Origin: Kofleriaceae bacterium
Lineage (GTDB): Bacteria > Myxococcota_A > Polyangia > Haliangiales > Haliangiaceae
Reading direction: 5' to 3'
NCBI GenBank assembly: GCA_046597055.1
Contig: JBKJLC010000293.1
Span: forward strand, 43,974-107,973
Length of the DNA: 64,000 nt
In this document: one piece after another, positions 21,201 through 33,200 of the stretch
Layout of the letters: each line of letters opens with the position of its first letter
How positions within the stretch are numbered: position 1 is the stretch's first letter
Position numbers: made by a program

Positions 21201-24200
21201 CTCACGGCCTTTATGCAGGTCGAGGCCACCATGCTGCGCGACAAGCTCGAGCTCGTCCTGGCCGACTCCAAGTCATCGGAGCACGTCAGCAAGGCCATGG
21301 ACGAGACCCAGCGCTACTTCCGGGTCAAGGCGATGCTGTCGCTCGCCAACGGCGTGCTGCTCGGCACCTGGTGTGCGATCTGGGGCGTCTCGAACCCGGT
21401 CCTGTGGGGCGTGCTGGCGTTCGCCCTCAACTTCGTCCCTATCATCGGAAGCCTGCTCGCGGCGATTCCGCCGGTCGTGCTGGGCCTGGTCGAGCTCGGG
21501 TTGGGGGGCGCGCTCGGCGTCGCCGCCGGCTTTGCCGCGGTCAACGTCGTGGTCGACAACATGCTCGAGCCGCGCCTGATGGGCCGGGCCCTGGGCGTCT
21601 CGCCGCTGGTCCTGATGATCTCGCTCCTGGTCTGGGGCTTCGTGCTCGGCCCGGTCGGCGCGCTGCTGTCGGTGCCGCTGACGGTCGCGGTCCGGATCTT
21701 CTTCGACAATCACCCCCAGCTGCGCTGGGTCGGCCTCCTGATGGCGTCGAGCACCCGCGACTACAAGGACGTGATCCGGCAGGGGCGCACCCCGCACATG
21801 ATCCGCCCGCCCGAGTAGCATCGCCGGCTTGCCCGGTCGTCGGCGGCATGGGACATGGGCAGCATGTCCTCGCTTCGCACGCTGACCTTCACGGTGAAGA
21901 CGGTGGCCGCGGCCTGCGGCGGCTCCACCGGTGCTCCCGCCGCCAGCCAGCCCGCCCCCGCGCACACGCCAGCCGACGTCGGCGACCACCGCCACCACCA
22001 CGGCGACGGCATGCCCCATCGGTTCGACGGCGCCGAGGCGTGGGCCAAGGTGTTCGATGATCCGGCGCGCGACGCCTGGCAGCAACCCGACCAGGTGGTC
22101 GGCCTGCTCGACCTGGCGCCGGGCATGGTGGTCGCCGACGTCGGCGCCGGCACCGGCTACTTCGTCGGTCGGCTGGCCGGCGCGGTCGGTCCCTCCGGCC
22201 AGGTGATCGCCACCGACGTCGAGGCCGACATGGTGCGCTACCTCGGCGAGCGCGGCGCCCGTGACGGCTGGACCAACGTGCGCGCGGTCCAGGTAGCCGG
22301 CGACGATCCCGGCCTCACCGCCGCCTCGGTCGACCGCATCCTGATCGTCGACGTCTGGCACCACCTCGGCGATCGGCCGCGCTACGCGGCCCGGCTGGCC
22401 GCCGCGCTGCGCCCGGGCGCGCGCCTGATGGTCGTCGACTTCACGCTCGACGCCGAGCGCGGGCCCCCCCGCGCCCTGCGGCTGGCGCCCGAGGCGATCA
22501 TCGCCGACCTCACCGCCGCCGGGCTCACCGCCGAGGTGGTGGCCGAGACGCTCCCCGATCAGTACGTCGTGGTCGCGCGCGCCCGCTGACGCCGAACCGC
22601 GCCGAGTGCGGCGCCATGCGGCGGCGCGAGCGACCTGCGGTGAGGCTTCCACGCCTCGGGTTGTGATGGAGTGGAATGACCCCCACACATGGCTTGCCAG
22701 TAGCACCCCTACAGTCACTCCCATGAAGCCCAGCGTGTTCGTCCTGATCGTGCTGGCGGCCGGCTGCGGCCGGGACGAGCTCCGGGTGTCCGGCTCCACG
22801 TACGCTTACACTCCCGGCGCGCCGGACTGGATCTCTCAGCGGACGCATCTCCTTGCACCGCGCGCTGCACATGGGCTGGTCGCACTACCCGGCCGCGCGT
22901 TCCTCGTGATCGGCGGCGACCGCGGCAAGCTCGACTCGTCGCCCACGGTCGAGCCCGCGCTCGACATCGAGCGCTGCGTGCTCGGCGAACCCGCGTGTGT
23001 CGTTGTCGGCCGGCTCGCGCGTCCGACCGAACAACCGACGGTCGCGCGCGCGCCCGACGGGACGATCGTGGTCGCCGATTGGCGCGGACTTCAGATCTTC
23101 GATCCCGCCACCGGGACGACCGCGGAGGTCCCGGTGGCGCCACACACGATCGTCGCGACGGCCGCTGGCGTCGTCCTGCTCGGGATCGAGGGTGCGCGGG
23201 ATCGGACCACGAACCTCCCCGGGCCGTACCAGTTCGGCCTGTTCCGCGGCCAGGCCACGGGTCTCGAGCCGCTCGCGGCCGCCCCCAACGCGGCGTGGGC
23301 AGGCGGGGTGGATGTGCTCGACGGAGATCGCATCGTCACGGCATCGCGCACGAGCTCGGCGCTGCTCGACGTCGCGACCGAGACGTGGACGGTGCTACCG
23401 AGCCTGCCGACGGAGACGTTCACGACGCACGTGGTGCAGGTCGGGGACGGCCTCGTGCTCGCGATTCCCGACGGCGCTCCGAAGGCGTATTTGCTCTCGG
23501 CGGCCACGCTGCGTTGGACGGCCGTCGCCGTGCCCACGACCACGGACCATGTGCAGCACGCGCTCACGGTCCCGGGCGGGGCCGTGGTGGTCACCAGTGA
23601 CGGCGTCGGCGGCGCGACCCGTACGTTCCGCGTCAGCGATGGGTCCTGGCTCGCGGGCCCGCCCCCGCCGCCGTGGTCGATCCTGAACGCCGCGGTCGTG
23701 CTCGACGACGGCACGGTGATCTCGGTGGGAGGGTGCGACTCCAACTTCATCGACGCGCGCGCGTCGTGACCTGCGCTGGTCGCCTGCACGTGACCGGTGG
23801 CGGTCGGCCGGGCGTCGGCGACCGCGGCGGTGATGCGTACCCACGAAGGGAATCGAACCCTCTCCATCGGTTTGAAAGGCCGAGGTCCTGACCACTGGAC
23901 GACGCGGGCGGTGACAGACGGGGTGCCTCTGGCAGGAATCGAACCTGCTCACCAGGTGTCGGAGACCCGGGTCGGATCCGTCCACAGAGGCGAGAAACGC
24001 GGAGCCCACCGACGGATTCGAACCGTCCTCTCTCCCGTACCAGGGGGGTGTGTCCGACCAGGATCACCAGATGGGCGTGAGCGTTGCGGTCGGGATCGAG
24101 AGGATCGAACTCTCCCATTTCGCCGTGTGAGAGCGACCTCACCCCCAGGTGAGCTGATCCCGATTTCAATGGAGCACTCGCCCGGATTTGCACCGGGATG

Positions 24201-30200: not shown

Positions 30201-33200
30201 GGATCTGTACGGTTCAGAGCCGTCCGTCGTGCCGAGTTGGACCAGCCCGGTGCGTGTCAGTAAGTGCGTCGATCGCCAGTCCCATGACTGACAACGATCG
30301 CAGTGGGGCGCCCAGGTTTTGAACCTGGCGGGTCGCGTGCGACGGCGGCTTTACAGGCCGCCCCGTCTCCATAGCGGTCTATCGCCCCGAGGGTGCTGCC
30401 GGAACGGCAACGAGAAAGGGCCACCTGGGTTCGTCCCGGGTGGCCCTGTTCACGGAGCTTGAGAGAGTGCTCTCGAGCTAGGTGGGAGGGGCCCCCCTGG
30501 GATCCTGACCGCCGCGGACGGCGCGATTCGCGAGACCGAAGATCTCTTCGATCTTCAGGCACTTGGCGGCGAAGCTGGACGTCAGACACCAGCTCAACTG
30601 CGCGGAAACGCGCCCTTGCGGCGAGCCAGATGGCATCGCATAGGCAAGGTGATGGAGCGAGGTGGTGTTCATGGCGGGTGCTTCGACGTCCGAGGTTTCG
30701 TTTGGTTCTGCTTTTTTCCGTCCCGAACCGGTGCCAGCCTGTGCCGCCCTTCCGTCCGGGTCCCCTGCGATCCGCTCAGTGCAGCAGTCGCGGGTTGATG
30801 ATCTGTGCTTAAAGGGTCTGGCCTCCGAAGTCAAACTCCAATCGAAATTATCTCAGAACTAACAGTCACCATTCGAGTTTCGTCGTCGAGGTCGTCGTCG
30901 CAACCGTCGGTGTGCGGCCGTGTCCACCGGACATGAGCGTGAGCGGCACGAATGGCACGAACGGTTCGATGGTAGCCACGGAGAGCTCGGTTCTGGTGTC
31001 GTTGCGGGAGCTTCGAGAGATCGAGGACCGCCGGCTGGTCGAGCGGAAGGAGGCGGCAACCGCCCGCGAGGTGGCCCAGACCCGGGCCTGGGAGGAGGCG
31101 GTGGCGCGGCGCGCGCGCGAGCGGACCGAGCGCGAGGCGGCCGAGGCGGCCGAGGCAGCGCGGTGCGCGGCCGCGCAGGAGCACGCGGCGCGCGCCGACG
31201 CCCTCCGGCTCGCGGCGGTCGAGGCGCAGGCGCGGGCCGAGGCCATGGTCCGGATCGAGGTCGAGCGCGCCAGCCTGGAAGTGGCGCTGCGCCGCGCGGA
31301 GCTCGAGCGGCGGCGTCCCCGCTGGCTCATGACGATCACCGCGGGCATGGCCGCGGTGGCGCTCGCGGTGGGATGGCTGGCGGTCGAGGCGCAGGACGCC
31401 GCCCGCGCGCAGCAGCGCGCCGCCGCCCGCGCGCAGGCCGAAGCCGCGAGCTCGCGGCAGGAGCTCGCGCGCCGGGTCGCGCAGGCCGACGTGCTGGGGC
31501 GCAAGATCGCGGACGCGCGGGCCGCGCTCGAGGCAGAGCGGCGGCGGGTCGAGCGCGCGAAGTCGCAGGCGCAGGCCGAGTGGAACCGTGTCCATGGCGG
31601 CAGTCGCCCCAAGCCCGGCAGTGGCAAGGGTGGCGCCGGCACTGGCAAGGGCGGTCGCGGGAAAGGCAATGGCAGTGGTGGCGGCGTGACTGACAGTCCC
31701 CCGGCCGGCGCGGTCAAGGTCTGTACGGACGGTGTCTTCTGCTGAGCGATGACTGACCGGCGCGGAGCCGCGGCTGACCGGGGGCCCACCGGCAGGGCGG
31801 GCCCGCGCCGGGCCGCGGACGCCGGGGGGTAGCGAAGGGGTCGGGAGTCGAGTAAGTCTGGCCGGTGCCCGCGCGCTACCTGATCGGCGTCGATCTCGGG
31901 ACGACCAACACCGCGGTCGCCTACGTGGACACGCGCGCGACCGACCCACGCGTGAAGGTGTTCGAGGTCGTGCAGCTGGTTGCCCCCGGTGAGGTCGCCC
32001 CTCGCCGGCAGCTGCCATCGTTCCTGTACCTGCCGGGCGAGCACGATCTGGCGCCTGCCGAGACCGCGCTGCCGTGGCGACCGGTCGGCGCCGCCGGCGA
32101 CAACCGCATCGTGGTCGGCGAGCTCGCCCGTCACCAGGGCGCGCGCAACCCGTCGCGGATGATCGCCTCGGCCAAGTCCTGGCTGTGCCACCCGGGCGTC
32201 GACCGCAAGGCCGCCATCTTGCCGTGGGGCGAGGGCAGCGGACCGCGGCTGTCGCCGGTGGCCGCCCAGGCAGCGATCCTCGCGCACGTGCGGGCGGCCT
32301 GGGACGACCTGATGTCCGGGGAACCGGACAGCCAGTTCGTGGCCCAGGACGTCGTGGTCACCTGCCCCGCCTCGTTCGACGAGGCCGCCCGCGAGCTGAC
32401 CCAGGAGGCGGCCGCGCTGGCCGGCCTCGAGCGGGTGGTGCTGCTCGAGGAGCCCCAGGCGGCGTTCTATGCCTGGATCGATCGCCACCACAGCCGGGCC
32501 CGCACGCTCGCGCCCGGCGAGCGCGTGCTGGTGTTCGACGTCGGCGGCGGGACGTCGGACTTCACGCTGATCACGGTCGACGCCGACGGCGGCTTCGAGC
32601 GCACCGCGGTCGGCGATCATCTGCTCCTCGGTGGCGACAACGTCGACCTGACCCTGGCCAAGCTGGTCGAGCAGCGGCTCACCGCCGATGGCGGCAAGAA
32701 GCTCGATGCCCTCCAGTGGCACGGTCTGGTCCACGCCTGCCGGCTGGCCAAGGAGACGCTGCTGGGCGACGCCGCCCCGGCCGAGGTGCCGATCACCGTC
32801 GCCAGCCGCGGCTCGCGCTTGATCGGCGGCACGCTGCGCGACCAGATCACGCGCGCGGAGCTCGAGCGGGTGCTGTTCGACGGCTTCTTCCCGGTCGCGA
32901 CCGCCGACGCCACCCCGGTCCGCGGCCGCGGCGGCCTGCAGGAGATGGGGCTGCCGTACGCGAGCGACCCGGCGGTGACGCGGCACCTGGCGTCGTTCCT
33001 GGCCCGCCACGGCGCGGCCCGGGTCGACGCGGTGCTGTTCAATGGTGGCGCCATGACTCCAGTCGCGCTGCGCGCGCGCGTGCTCGGGCAGCTGGCGGCG
33101 TGGCAGCCCGATGCGCCACCCCCGCGCGAGCTCGAGGCGATCGCACCCGAGCTGGCGGTCGCCGTGGGCGCCGCCTATTACGGGCTGGTCCGGCGCGGCC

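What a model noticed while it worked through the whole genome (the two positions that open the first line are those of the whole stretch)
23837..30388. Ro60 gene embedded in a 26-tRNA array, a locus conserved across Haliangiaceae
A 6.5-kb stretch holds 26 same-strand tRNA genes for 19 amino acids that are a second, divergent copy of the housekeeping set. The array is built around a Ro60/TROVE gene (g03548) and a small HNH nuclease gene (g03547). The same Ro60 + HNH + tRNA arrangement, with largely conserved tRNA order, is found at every Haliangiaceae Ro60 locus examined, so it is an inherited module and not a recent phage or plasmid tRNA island. Smaller tRNA clusters also sit beside the nearest Ro60 relatives in four other phyla. 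This ties bacterial Ro60, an RNA quality-control protein known to bind tRNA-like Y RNAs, to a spare tRNA set.
Evidence so far: rna.tsv, ARAGORN and Rfam give 26 tRNAs at C145:67810-74361 on the minus strand. Each array tRNA is only 64-75% identical to the best housekeeping tRNA, and all 24 array anticodons are also present in the 41-anticodon housekeeping set. A Ro60 homolog is found in 86 of 137 other Haliangiaceae genomes. tRNAs flank Ro60 in 19 of 19 family genomes looked at (23 fetched stretches, 2-32 tRNAs), with the recurring order Tyr-Gln-Phe-Lys-Gly-Gly-Thr | Ro60 | Asn-Glu-Arg-Met-Pro..Leu | HNH | Ser-Val-Ala-Asp-Cys-Thr-Glu. 57 of 57 named Kofleriaceae/Haliangiales-type records, which partly overlap the 19 genomes, have tRNAs within 1.5 kb of Ro60, 47 of them with 5 or more. 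0 of 13 Ro60 loci from other My [...]
(Added by a program. Inside this text positions count along the whole contig: contig position 43,974 is position 1 of the stretch shown here. "Call 12" and the like, gene names such as g00115 and contig names such as C1 are that model's own, and its searches are not shown. The text may have been shortened before it was handed on; [...] marks where a part breaks off. The agent that wrote the report below was given it as the finding of a first reader that could run no searches.)

Follow-up and report, generated by a model that had tools for sequence, protein, structure and literature searches.

The report
Ro60 operon: tRNA array hiding Y RNAs
A conserved bacterial gene cluster packs a spare set of transfer RNAs around the RNA quality-control protein Ro60, and the apparent gaps between those tRNAs encode Ro60's likely partner RNAs, most of them built like ordinary tRNAs with an extra Ro60-docking arm.

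Summary
Window 23837-30388 carries 26 same-strand tRNA genes around rsr (Ro60) and an HNH gene, redundant with and divergent from the housekeeping set. The locus is syntenic across the genus, and tRNAs flank Ro60 in 20 of 20 related stretches.

They encode one canonical-topology Y RNA (27178-27375) and five tRNA-shaped RNAs (26088-26818). These five have an intact acceptor stem and T arm (four also a D arm) plus an extra arm ending in a Ro60-docking-like hairpin (GCCCG-loop-CGGGC-C-GNNG). They are the non-permuted counterpart of the known, circularly permuted YrlA Y RNAs.

A covariance model finds them only at Ro60 loci: 16 of 20 Ro60-positive versus 0 of 21 Ro60-negative relatives. It also finds them beside Ro60 in Chloroflexota, Gemmatimonadota, Armatimonadota, cyanobacteria and Polyangia. 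The same hairpin abuts the rsr ribosome-binding site, which suggests autoregulation.

The ordinary array tRNAs keep synthetase identity elements and read about 88% of host codon usage, so they probably decode.

Known relatives are tRNA array units with an embedded HNH, phage Ro60-tRNA regions (Myxococcus phage Mx1) and YrlA. I call this a new variant of known kinds. Binding, processing and charging are all untested.

The parts
23837..30388 (-). Whole module: a tRNA array unit of 26 called tRNA genes plus degenerate ones, with embedded rsr, HNH and Y RNA genes. All lie on one strand, with spacers often only 3-21 nt.
   Evidence: The density is 26 genes in 6552 nt, or 4.0 per kb.
29444..30388 (-). 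Upstream tRNA block: Tyr-Gln-Phe-Lys-Gly(gcc)-Gly(tcc)-Thr(cgt).
   Evidence: The same order is seen in relatives.
30000..30176 (-). Conserved Gln-Phe spacer holding a Ro-site-like hairpin at about 30120-30141 (GUCU-GCCC-GCAC-GGGC-C-GAC).
   Evidence: blastn matches rows of 28 related loci.
29285..29309 (-). rsr leader hairpin GCCCA-CCGCG-UGGGC, then C and the GGAGG Shine-Dalgarno sequence one base after the stem. The GTG start lies 6 nt further on.
   Evidence: A strict regex finds it in at least 26 of 41 Myxococcota and 5 of 16 Chloroflexota loci.
27645..29282 (-). rsr (Ro60), 545 aa, with TROVE and vWA domains.
   Evidence: Pfam PF05731 and PF25045. NCBIfam Rsr scores 595.8 bits, below the 900 equivalog cut-off. 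phrog_850 also matches.
27376..27572 (-). tRNA-Asn(gtt) and tRNA-Glu(ctc), directly after rsr.
27178..27375 (-). Canonical-topology Y RNA. The 5' end ACGGGC-C-GG...UGUGUUGG pairs with the 3' end CCAACACA...CUUGCCUGU. Internal hairpins include a GNRA-capped one.
   Evidence: RNAalifold on 7 orthologues gives 48 pairs, 12 with compensatory changes, and predicts the terminal helix. blastn matches rows of 37 loci.
26824..27177 (-). tRNA-Arg(acg), degenerate tRNA-Trp(cca) at 26971-27038, a tRNA-like element with encoded CCA at 26897-26968, and tRNA-Met.
26724..26818 (-). Mini tRNA-shaped Y RNA (U0): acceptor stem, Ro arm (UUGCCCG-GAAA-CGGGC-C-GAACG) and a weak T arm, with no D arm.
   Evidence: 36.8 bits. 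Orthologous 87-89-nt forms occur in L024, L025, L026 and L028.
26647..26719 (-). tRNA-Pro(ggg).
26505..26632 (-). tRNA-shaped Y RNA unit A.
   Evidence: R1 scores 124.9 bits. Structure is supported.
26375..26499 (-). tRNA-shaped Y RNA unit B.
   Evidence: R1 scores 93.7 bits.
26227..26353 (-). tRNA-shaped Y RNA unit C.
   Evidence: R1 scores 104 bits.
26088..26212 (-). tRNA-shaped Y RNA unit D.
   Evidence: R1 scores 81.6 bits. The MFE fold gives a cloverleaf plus an extra arm.
25851..26077 (-). tRNA-Ile(gat)-like (26005-26077), a tRNA-like element with encoded CCA (25929-26006), and tRNA-Leu(cag) of 76 nt with a short variable loop.
25814..25836 (-). Ro-site-like hairpin in the Leu-HNH spacer (UUUUGCCCA-CACGUCG-UGGGC-C-GAUGG).
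   Evidence: The same element recurs in L022, L024-L028, L030 and L041.
25206..25754 (-). HNH nuclease, 182 aa.
   Evidence: Pfam HNH_5. Full-length match to phrog_16726 at 7.7e-41. Orthologues in 51 locus rows. Homologue in Myxococcus phage Mx1, placed after a tRNA-Leu.
23837..25091 (-). Downstream tRNA block: Ser-Ser-Pro-Val-Asp-Ala-Asp-Ala-Cys-[degenerate Val(cac) at about 24089-24163]-Thr-Arg-Glu.

Best explanation
The stretch is one same-strand RNA/protein module: a chromosomal tRNA array unit that doubles as a Ro60 (rsr) operon.

Shown by sequence analysis:
- It encodes a near-complete second set of tRNAs.
- It encodes Ro60 and a conserved HNH nuclease.
- In what look like spacers, it encodes Ro60's probable partner RNAs: one Y RNA of the usual topology (ends paired into the Ro-binding helix) and five tRNA-shaped Y RNAs.
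- The tRNA-shaped Y RNAs have a normal 7-bp acceptor stem with free ends and a T arm; four also have a D arm and a small anticodon-like hairpin. Between the D arm and that hairpin they carry an extra arm whose tip is a hairpin-closed copy of the Ro60-binding helix. They are YrlA turned back into tRNA topology.

Inferred mechanism:
- The cluster is transcribed as long precursors. RNase P and RNase Z-type processing release tRNAs and Y RNAs alike.
- Ro60 docks on the hairpin arms to form Y RNPs. Their tRNA-like half could recruit tRNA-handling enzymes or exonucleases.
- Surplus Ro60 binds the same hairpin in its own mRNA leader, one base from the Shine-Dalgarno sequence, and lowers its own translation.
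- The ordinary array tRNAs are charged and decode. They act as a body-sequence-divergent backup set expressed together with the RNA quality-control machinery, for example when housekeeping tRNAs are damaged or targeted. This last point is the most speculative.
For: **Structure of the tRNA-shaped units.** I aligned 20 units from the window and 13 relatives. 98% of cells pair, 11 pairs change on both sides, and 0 of 500 shuffles reach this. Across 85 units from several phyla, RNAalifold keeps the same 27 pairs, 21 with compensatory changes (that alignment was fitted to the model).

**Specificity of covariance model R1.**
- Chimeras score 62-125 bits at 120-153 nt; ordinary tRNAs score 50 bits or less.
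- In the 8.38-Mb own genome, only the 4 locus copies exceed 80 bits.
- In whole genomes of 41 relatives there are 31 hits in 16 genomes. All 16 are Ro60-positive: 16 of 20 Ro60-positive versus 0 of 21 Ro60-negative.
- There are 85 hits in 52 of 81 Ro60 loci, all on Ro60's strand, including Chloroflexota, Gemmatimonadaceae, Armatimonadota and Parabeggiatoa.
- An RNA-first pattern scan returned 80 fetched loci. 54 had Ro60 within 3.5 kb, and all 65 pattern matches in those loci were on Ro60's strand.

**Topology.**
- 35 of 52 loci hold a single unit.
- The within-unit acceptor stem is 7/7 paired in 78 of 85 units.
- CCA follows the discriminator in 20 of 85.
- In other loci the Rfam tRNA model matches units end to end above its gathering score, while YrlA stays at 37 bits or less against a cut-off of 69.

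**Ro-site.**
- The same GGGC-C-G / YUYGCCC helix forms the terminal stem of the canonical Y RNA, with compensatory GAGC/GCUC variants.
- It resembles the YrlA consensus printed and the GNCGAAN0-1G motif of Chen 2014 (PMC4201824, passages read). The relaxed form GNCGNN(N)G is present in 84 of 85 units.
- The motif has 6 hits in the locus against 0.035 expected at the genome rate.

**Leader hairpin plus Shine-Dalgarno sequence:**

**tRNAs look functional.** Ala G3:U70 in 28/33, Cys U73 in 20/22, Trp G73 in 11/11, Leu A73 in 64/66, Asp G73 in 28/33, Lys A73 in 41/41. The array anticodons read 41 codons, which make up 88% of usage in 808 host ORFs.

**Inheritance:** conserved synteny.
Against: - There is no binding, processing, expression-end or charging evidence. 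The only RNA evidence is metatranscriptome contigs over parts of rsr and HNH from a 90-99% similar strain.
- The exact published motif GNCGAAN0-1G occurs in only 11 of 85 units.
- Stem c barely varies within Myxococcota, so its pairing is supported by conservation and not by covariation there.
- Rfam YrlA does not reach its gathering score anywhere in the window (31 bits against 69).
- In tandem arrays 13 of 33 neighbouring units could also pair acceptor strands 7/7 across units, so tandem loci alone cannot fix the register.
- Four Ro60-positive relatives (G004, G014, G032, G040) have no tRNA-shaped unit at the threshold, so it is dispensable.
- Array tRNAs score lower on the tRNA model (28-61 bits against 51-76). 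Some are odd: Leu lacks the long variable arm, D arms are reduced, and Ile has C33.
- The genome is a MAG with 7.55% estimated contamination.
Confidence: 0.7

Rival explanations
1. The spare tRNAs themselves are the point: they are Ro60 ligands or decoys (or misfolding-prone substrates), and they do little decoding.
For: - They score lower on the tRNA model than housekeeping tRNAs: 20 array matches at 28.3-60.8 bits against 44 others at 51.1-75.9.
- They have atypical features such as a short-arm Leu and 3-bp D stems.
- They are always co-located with Ro60.
Against: - Synthetase identity elements and anticodons are conserved across 81 loci, and the anticodon set fits host codon usage.
- They lack the Ro-site hairpin that marks the dedicated units.
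Confidence: 0.12
2. The module is a fossil of a phage tRNA-Ro60 region (Mx1-like) that persists without a host function.
For: - Myxococcus phage Mx1 carries a TROVE gene inside a tRNA-rich region, with the same HNH family (41.8% identity) right after a tRNA-Leu.
- Streptomyces phage Sham has a Ro-like gene among tRNAs and HNH genes.
- 355 phage records encode Ro60 homologues.
- The HNH matches phrog_16726 over its full length.
Against: - The chromosomal neighbours are the same in 8 genus genomes.
- Ro60 is in 83 of 137 family genomes at 58-87% identity, mostly with open frames.
- tRNA order and identity elements are kept.
- I detected no phage, integrase or transposase domains in the flanking ORFs tested.
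- No tRNA-shaped units were found in the 4 phage loci scanned.
Confidence: 0.1
3. The tRNA-shaped units are misread. Either they are ordinary permuted YrlA RNAs read in the wrong register, or they are tRNA genes with an intron-like insert that is removed (for example, ligation by one of the four RtcB paralogues) to give normal tRNAs.
For: - Tandem units allow both registers: 13 of 33 neighbour pairs pair 7/7.
- Chen 2014's YrlA-II seed aligns cyanobacterial relatives in the permuted register (supplement read).
- Type-b units keep a full Pro-like anticodon stem-loop next to the insert, and ARAGORN even calls one of them tRNA-Pro(agg).
- There are four RtcB genes in the genome.
Against: - 35 of 52 loci have one unit only.
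- The Ro helix is closed by loops of 2-12 nt, often tetraloops.
- CCA is encoded after 20 of 85 units.
- The anticodon-like loops differ freely between orthologues.
- No bacterial endonuclease for such inserts is known (my own knowledge). RtcB is not linked to this locus.
Confidence: 0.08
4. The recurring hairpins are generic GC-rich processing or stability elements of a polycistronic tRNA transcript and have nothing to do with Ro60.
For: - The genome is GC-rich, and 85 further motif hits occur elsewhere in it.
- The AA of the published motif is not conserved.
Against: - There is roughly 170-fold local enrichment.
- Presence tracks Ro60 across genomes and phyla.
- The same helix forms the termini of a canonical Y RNA.
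- The flanks match the YrlA consensus and Chen's seed rows, including GGGUUAUCG.
Confidence: 0.07

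Closest known systems
YrlA-type bacterial Y RNAs (Rfam RF02553; Chen et al. 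2014 PMC4201824; Wang et al. 2018 bioRxiv 10.1101/312249)
   Same: Both are encoded next to and on the same strand as rsr. Both have tRNA-like D and T arms and an acceptor-like stem. Both have a Ro-binding helix with a bulged C and a GNCGAA-like strand. The shared GG(G)UUAYCG stretch seen in Chen's YrlA-II seed rows is also present.
   Different: The topology is the reverse. Published YrlA has its ends in the Ro helix and a loop-closed acceptor stem. Here the ends are at the acceptor stem, sometimes with encoded CCA, and the Ro helix is loop-closed. The Rfam model does not reach its cut-off here. The canonical-topology Y RNA at 27178-27375 has the YrlA-like 5' part but no tRNA-like T arm.
tRNA array units (Tran et al. 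2015 PMC4758250, abstract read; Mycobacterium arrays PMC5966550, abstract read; M. avium plasmid arrays PMC12803027, passages read)
   Same: There are at least 20 tRNA genes at 2 or more per kb. The anticodons are redundant with the chromosomal set. The tRNA bodies are divergent. A single conserved HNH gene sits inside the array.
   Different: Those papers do not mention Ro60, TROVE or Y RNA: 0 occurrences in PMC12803027 and no TROVE or HNH in PMC4758250. The present array is chromosomal and syntenic and contains rsr and Y RNA genes. I did not test homology between this HNH and the mycobacterial array HNH.
Phage Ro60-tRNA regions (Myxococcus phage Mx1 OR576727.2; Streptomyces phage Sham ON645339.1; cluster C mycobacteriophages such as ET08)
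   Same: A TROVE/Ro-like gene is embedded among same-strand tRNAs and HNH genes. In Mx1, an HNH of the same family directly follows a tRNA-Leu, as it does here.
   Different: The phage regions are interrupted by many small ORFs. No tRNA-shaped Y RNA was detected in the four phage loci scanned. ET08 has a permuted YrlA according to Chen 2014. The Mx1 TROVE protein was not among the 355 tblastn hits to this Ro60.
Salmonella rsr-yrlBA-rtcBA RNA-repair operon (Hughes et al. 2020, PMC7790460; abstract seen only in a search listing)
   Same: Ro60 is co-encoded with its Y RNAs, in a setting connected to tRNA damage.
   Different: There is no RtcB, RtcA or RtcR at this locus. Four RtcB genes lie on other contigs. 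This locus holds tRNA genes where that operon holds repair enzymes.

Membership tests
tRNA array unit | At least 20 tRNA genes at a density of at least 2 per kb (definition in the abstract of PMC4758250). | tested here: met
   26 tRNA genes in 6552 nt, or 4.0 per kb.
tRNA array unit | Anticodons redundant with the rest of the genome, and tRNA bodies divergent. | tested here: met
   All 24 anticodons also occur outside the array. Identity to the best outside tRNA is 64-75%. Rfam scores are lower.
tRNA array unit | A conserved HNH gene embedded in the array (as in M. avium arrays, PMC12803027). | tested here: inconclusive
   An HNH gene is present and conserved here. I did not test homology to the mycobacterial array HNH.
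Ro60 / Rsr | TROVE (HEAT-repeat ring) domain plus a C-terminal vWA domain. | tested here: met
   PF05731 at 5.3e-45 and PF25045 at 8.2e-64.
Ro60 / Rsr | NCBIfam equivalog NF041674 at or above its curated cut-off. | tested here: not met
   595.8 bits against a cut-off of 900. This is a family member but not the curated equivalog.
Y RNA (general) | A Ro60-binding helix with a bulged C and a conserved GNCGAA-type strand. | tested here: inconclusive
   The helix and bulge are present in all elements. The exact motif is in 11 of 85 units and the relaxed GNCGNN(N)G form in 84 of 85. The terminal helix of 27178-27375 is supported by covariation.
Y RNA (general) | Physical binding to Ro60. | not testable with these tools
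Only the genomic association is shown.
YrlA (RF02553) | A match to the Rfam model at its gathering score. | tested here: not met
   The best score is 31 bits against 69 in the window, and 37 bits or less in 8 other carrier loci.
YrlA (RF02553) | Circularly permuted tRNA topology: termini in the Ro helix and an acceptor stem closed by a loop. | tested here: not met
   The units have free acceptor ends and a loop-closed Ro helix. 35 of 52 loci are single units, and CCA follows 20 of 85 units.
YrlA (RF02553) | tRNA-like D and T arms, encoded within about 4 kb of rsr and on the same strand. | tested here: met
tRNA (RF00005), for the tRNA-shaped units | An end-to-end match to the tRNA model above its gathering score. 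| tested here: inconclusive
   This is met for units in other loci, for example L100 5582-5708 at 53.2 bits and L173 4808-4932 at 49 bits. It is not met for the window's own units, where only a partial 25.1-bit match was seen.

The most novel reading that the evidence does not exclude
Non-permuted, tRNA-topology Y RNAs are a widespread, unrecognised class spanning at least five phyla. They are matured by the tRNA pathway and end in CCA, and they may be charged or bound by EF-Tu or tRNA enzymes, physically coupling Ro60 to the tRNA and translation machinery. They would also be the missing intermediate showing that permuted YrlA Y RNAs arose from tRNA genes inside tRNA operons. Some published 'long acceptor stem' YrlA RNAs of cyanobacteria would then be two such units read in the wrong register. 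In this lineage the same Ro-site on the rsr ribosome-binding site gives Ro60 feedback control, and the co-transcribed, body-divergent tRNA set acts as a tRNA-damage or anti-toxin backup.
Probability: 0.3. Interest if true: 0.85.

Novelty: new variant of a known kind. Interest (0 to 1): 0.72.

Why it matters
What bacterial Y RNAs recruit, and where they came from, are open questions. Chen 2014 and Wang 2018 propose a tRNA origin and an unknown effector for the tRNA-like domain.

A Y RNA that is still wired as a tRNA, sits in a tRNA operon, and is found from myxobacteria to cyanobacteria makes both questions testable. It should be processed, CCA-tailed and perhaps charged like a tRNA.

The class also occurs in cultured strains with complete genomes: Minicystis rosea DSM 24000 (CP016211) and Abditibacteriota IAD-21 (AP024152).

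It gives tRNA array units, whose function is unknown and is currently guessed to be anti-defence, a concrete molecular partner in Ro60. It also suggests a simple Ro60 autoregulatory switch.

For annotation, standard tools leave these genes as empty spacers or as spurious ORFs, for example the 196-aa ORF at 25967-26557.

Tried and rejected
- **Rfam YrlA.** It gave only sub-threshold, register-straddling hits in the window. I rejected it as a classifier for these units. At the gathering threshold on 12 further Ro60 loci, including phage ET08, it returned tRNAs only.
- **Promoter and terminator scan.** It found no sigma-70-like site and nothing informative. By eye, a sigma-54-like spacing upstream of tRNA-Tyr does not fit.
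- **RNA evidence.** There were two metatranscriptome runs, as contigs only. Pieces lie on rsr (27615-28016, 28246-28876, 28959-29320) and HNH (25661-25831) at 90-99% likeness. These data give no ends and no strand, and DNA carry-over cannot be excluded. Lack of cover over the tRNA and Y RNA genes means nothing.
- **ORF 25967-26557** (196 aa) and other ORFs over the array have no Pfam family and overlap RNA genes. I treat them as spurious.
- **Flanking ORFs.** I searched them for mobile-element domains and found none.
- **HNH function.** Atlas, NCBIfam, PDB sequence, plasmid and phage searches give only a generic small HNH family. The HNH core resembles the IscB/Cas9 HNH. There is no functional lead. 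The paralogue on contig C266 has no tRNA or Ro60 context.
- **RtcB linkage.** Four copies exist and none is nearby.
- **Phage loci** (Mx1, ET08, Sham). No tRNA-shaped Y RNA was found.
- **Earlier scan notes**. Several describe permuted YrlA arrays; none describes the non-permuted form. A look-up by sequence found nothing.
- **Literature limits.** No paper held both 'Ro60' and 'tRNA array', and further searches found no description of non-permuted Y RNAs or of Ro60 in tRNA arrays. The Wolin-lab reviews of 2018 and 2020 are not held. File 6 of Chen 2014's supplements was not searched, and their Table S1 was only term-searched. Priority therefore cannot be excluded.
- **Not done.** I did not fold any protein or predict any complex.

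Full report
**1. Observation**

ARAGORN finds 25 tRNA genes in the 64-kb window. All are on the minus strand and all lie between 23837 and 30388. Rfam adds a 52-bit tRNA at 26007-26077 with an Ile GAU-like anticodon loop, which gives the reported 26.

A relaxed ARAGORN run also recovers a degenerate Trp(CCA) at 26971-27038. A degenerate Val(CAC) can be read at about 24089-24163, where relatives have Val(cac). Only His is missing.

The 590-aa ORF 27645-29417 is Ro60, with TROVE and vWA_Ro60 domains. Homology and the relatives' ATG place the true start at GTG 29282, giving 545 aa. The gene at 25206-25754 is an HNH_5 nuclease.

The array tRNAs are 64-75% identical to the best tRNA elsewhere in the genome, and every array anticodon also exists elsewhere. 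On the Rfam tRNA model the 20 array matches score 28.3-60.8 bits. The 44 matches elsewhere score 51.1-75.9 bits.

**2. Conservation and context**

Ro60 is found in 20 of 41 sampled relatives and in 83 of 137 other family genomes. That tally includes the unpublished G073 and G074; without them it is 81 of 135.

All 20 stretches fetched around Ro60 from 19 genomes carry same-strand tRNAs (4-32 each) in largely the same order. In 80 named loci from several phyla, every tRNA ARAGORN found is on Ro60's strand. Large arrays also occur in Actinomycetes, Polyangia and Promineifilaceae.

The divergently oriented Hsp70+DUF3731 gene (31865-34669) neighbours the array in 8 genus genomes. The flanking ORFs I tested show kinases, a response regulator and Hsp70-like proteins, with no mobile-element domains.

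**3. What the gaps hold: tRNA-shaped units**

T-arm motifs occur outside the called tRNAs. Reading the minus strand from 26819 to 26088 shows five tightly packed units.

Four of them (26505-26632, 26375-26499, 26227-26353, 26088-26212) share this layout:
- a perfect 7-bp acceptor stem with a discriminator base;
- a tRNA D arm;
- an extra arm of a 6-bp stem, internal loops and a terminal hairpin GCCCG-N4-CGGGC, followed by a bulged C and G-N-N-G;
- the conserved run GGUUAUCG;
- a small hairpin;
- a canonical T arm.

The fifth (26724-26818) is a shorter form without the D arm.

The strands flanking the terminal hairpin resemble the two strands of the Ro-binding stem in the Rfam YrlA consensus (alignment). 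They also resemble the GNCGAAN0-1G motif of Chen et al. 2014 (PMC4201824; passages and section 5 read).

Published YrlA has its ends in that stem and a loop-closed acceptor stem. It is described as a circularly permuted tRNA (Wang et al. 2018, passages read). The units here are the opposite permutation: they have normal tRNA topology.

**4. Tests of the units**

*Structure.* In an alignment of 20 units from the window and 13 related loci, 98% of cells pair. Eleven pairs change on both sides, no shuffle out of 500 reaches this, and slid controls collapse to 30-46% paired. The Ro hairpin stem itself is nearly invariant there.

*Specificity.* A covariance model (R1) separates 30 units (62-125 bits, 120-153 nt) from ordinary tRNAs (50 bits or less) in the 21 sources.
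- In the whole own genome, only the four locus copies exceed 80 bits.
- In whole genomes of 41 relatives it gives 31 hits in 16 genomes. All 16 have Ro60 (16 of 20 Ro60-positive, 0 of 21 Ro60-negative). The hits lie on the Ro60 contig, except in one fragmented assembly.
- In 81 Ro60 loci it gives 85 hits in 52 sources, all on Ro60's strand. They lie downstream of rsr in Myxococcota and upstream of it in Chloroflexota, Gemmatimonadaceae, Armatimonadota and a Parabeggiatoa MAG.
- RNAalifold on these 85 keeps the 27 pairs, 21 with compensatory changes (that alignment is model-fitted, which favours the structure).

*Register.*
- 35 of the 52 loci have a single unit, where a permuted reading is impossible.
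- The within-unit acceptor stem is 7/7 in 78 of 85 units.
- CCA follows the discriminator in 20 of 85.
- Neighbouring units can often also pair (13 of 33 at 7/7), so tandem loci alone do not decide the register.

Of the 80 fetched, 54 have Ro60 within 3.5 kb, and all 65 matches in those loci are on its strand. My crude sort gives about equal numbers of non-permuted and permuted forms.

R1 hits among them include cyanobacteria with GNRA-closed Ro hairpins and encoded CCA. They also include Minicystis rosea DSM 24000, Abditibacteriota IAD-21 and a Polyangiaceae MAG with about ten units.

With permissive filters the Rfam tRNA model matches several such units end to end above its cut-off. YrlA stays at 37 bits or less and straddles two units.

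**5. A canonical Y RNA and more Ro-sites**

The 198-nt Glu-Arg spacer (27178-27375) is conserved in rows of 37 loci. Its 5' end (ACGGGC, bulged C, GG, then UGUGUUGG) pairs with its 3' end (CCAACACA ... CUUGCCUGU).

Orthologues show compensatory changes, including GAGC/GCUC in other families. RNAalifold on seven orthologues predicts this terminal architecture on its own, with 48 pairs and 12 compensatory. Its first 45 nt resemble the 5' part of Chen's YrlA-II seed rows (supplement read), but it has no T arm.

The same hairpin form of the site recurs at three further places:
- in the conserved Gln-Phe spacer (about 30120-30141);
- upstream of HNH (25814-25836);
- immediately before rsr (29295-29309), where the stem is followed by C and then GGAGG, six bases before the start codon.

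A strict regex finds this leader hairpin in at least 26 of 41 Myxococcota and 5 of 16 Chloroflexota loci, and in none of 11 Gemmatimonadaceae loci. Genome-wide, the motif has 91 hits in 16.75 Mb of both strands. Six are in the locus, where 0.035 are expected.

**6. Are the ordinary array tRNAs real tRNAs?**

Across the window and 80 loci they keep class-defining identity elements:

| tRNA | Element | Count |
|---|---|---|
| Ala | G3:U70 | 28/33 |
| Ala | A73 | 28/33 |
| Asp | G73 | 28/33 |
| Cys | U73 | 20/22 |
| Trp | G73 | 11/11 |
| His | C73 | 10/12 |
| Leu | A73 | 64/66 |
| Ser | G73 | 29/37 |
| Gly | U73 | 33/46 |
| Pro | C1:G72 | 51/62 |
| Lys | A73 | 41/41 |

Which bases are identity elements is established knowledge that I recalled, not a tool result.

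The window's anticodons read 41 codons, which make up 88% of codon usage in 808 high-GC3 ORFs of this genome. The main gaps (CTC, GTG, CAC) are filled by array tRNAs in relatives. This argues for charging and decoding.

Against it stand the lower model scores and oddities such as the 76-nt Leu without a long variable arm.

**7. Mechanism**

*Shown:* gene content, structures, conservation and the association with Ro60.

*Inferred:*
- co-transcription and RNase P/Z maturation of tRNAs and Y RNAs from shared precursors (spacers are 3-21 nt);
- Ro60 docking on the hairpin arms;
- translational autorepression through the leader site next to the Shine-Dalgarno sequence;
- a backup-decoder role for the divergent tRNA set alongside Ro60-based RNA surveillance.

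The function of the HNH gene is unknown. It is conserved in the module. It has a paralogue elsewhere in the genome without tRNA or Ro60 context. It belongs to a family common in large phages and megaplasmids.

**8. What is known**

- tRNA array units are described. In M. avium they carry redundant anticodons, divergent bodies and one conserved HNH gene, and are suspected of being anti-defence. Ro60 is not mentioned (PMC12803027, passages read; PMC4758250, abstract plus a term search).
- Phage genomes show Ro-like genes among tRNAs and HNH genes. Streptomyces phage Sham is one example. Myxococcus phage Mx1 is another: its HNH is of the same family and directly follows a tRNA-Leu, as here.
- Y RNAs next to rsr, often several in tandem, are known (Chen 2014; earlier notes of this scan).
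- I found no paper holding both 'Ro60' and 'tRNA array', and none describing non-permuted Y RNAs. Two key reviews are not held, and part of Chen's supplements was not searched.
- Chen et al. discarded hits overlapping tandem tRNAs and noted few YrlA RNAs in delta-proteobacteria and cyanobacteria, some with 'longer acceptor stems'. Their cyanobacterial seed rows run T arm, acceptor strand, CCA, a spacer of up to about 110 nt, then acceptor strand and D arm. This looks like two neighbouring non-permuted units. I read this by eye and did not test it.

**9. Verdict**

The finding is real and inherited. Its most interesting content is not the spare tRNA set alone. The array encodes a canonical Y RNA, a new tRNA-topology variant of YrlA that is widespread beside Ro60, and a Ro-site on the rsr leader.

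I rate it a new variant of known kinds, with interest 0.72. All functional steps remain to be tested.

Noticed in passing
window 25967-26557 (-), and plus-strand ORFs 24468-25892 and 27465-29360: Long ORFs without any Pfam family lie over the RNA genes or antisense to rsr. They are most likely artefacts of the high GC content, and gene callers may annotate them in place of the Y RNAs.
   Followed up: partly
window 26897-26968 (-) and 25929-26006 (-): Two further tRNA-like elements have a good acceptor stem and T arm and an encoded CCA, but odd middles: one has a perfect 8-bp hairpin where the anticodon arm should be. Their kind is unclear.
   Followed up: no
window 25851-25926 (-); Leu genes in L022-L041: The array tRNA-Leu genes are only 74-78 nt and lack the long variable arm typical of bacterial tRNA-Leu, yet they keep A73. 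The housekeeping Leu tRNAs in the same genome are 83-88 nt.
   Followed up: partly
G000 contig C266:26624-27151 (locus L255 5625-6158): A 73%-identical paralogue of the array HNH lies elsewhere in the genome, next to feoB and kinase genes. It has no tRNAs or Ro60 within 9 kb.
   Followed up: yes
window 17438-19204 (+) and 31865-34669 (+): Two Hsp70-like genes, the second with DUF3731, bracket the region. The second is a conserved neighbour of the array in 8 genus genomes.
   Followed up: partly
window about 30400-30450 (-), upstream of tRNA-Tyr: A conserved 9-bp GC hairpin is followed by UUUCUCGUU just before the first tRNA. blastn finds it in rows of 21 loci. It could be a terminator-like insulator or a leader element, and no promoter was identified.
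   Followed up: no
L256/L257 (Myxococcus phage Mx1, OR576727.2 48000-68600): The phage has a TROVE-domain gene inside a run of at least 15 tRNA genes, together with a peptidyl-tRNA hydrolase gene and an HNH of the window's family placed between two tRNA-Leu genes.
   Followed up: partly
L033 8034-8228 and 8303-8520 (G040, another family): Two short (about 70-85 nt) canonical-topology Y RNA candidates with a GCGAGC/GUUCGC terminal helix sit between tRNA-Glu genes. This genome has no tRNA-shaped unit.
   Followed up: partly
L173 (Polyangiaceae MAG) 3212-5130; L202 (Minicystis rosea) 3445-3697: One Polyangiaceae locus carries about ten tRNA-shaped Y RNA units in tandem. The cultured Minicystis rosea has two, inside a dense array in which Rfam tRNAs (above its gathering score) within 7 kb.
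   Followed up: partly
Chen et al. 2014, Supplementary text 2 (YrlA-II seed): The Chondromyces row looks like two tandem tRNAs. The cyanobacterial rows contain acceptor strand + CCA + a long AT-rich spacer + acceptor strand, which suggests two adjacent non-permuted units and not one RNA.
   Followed up: no
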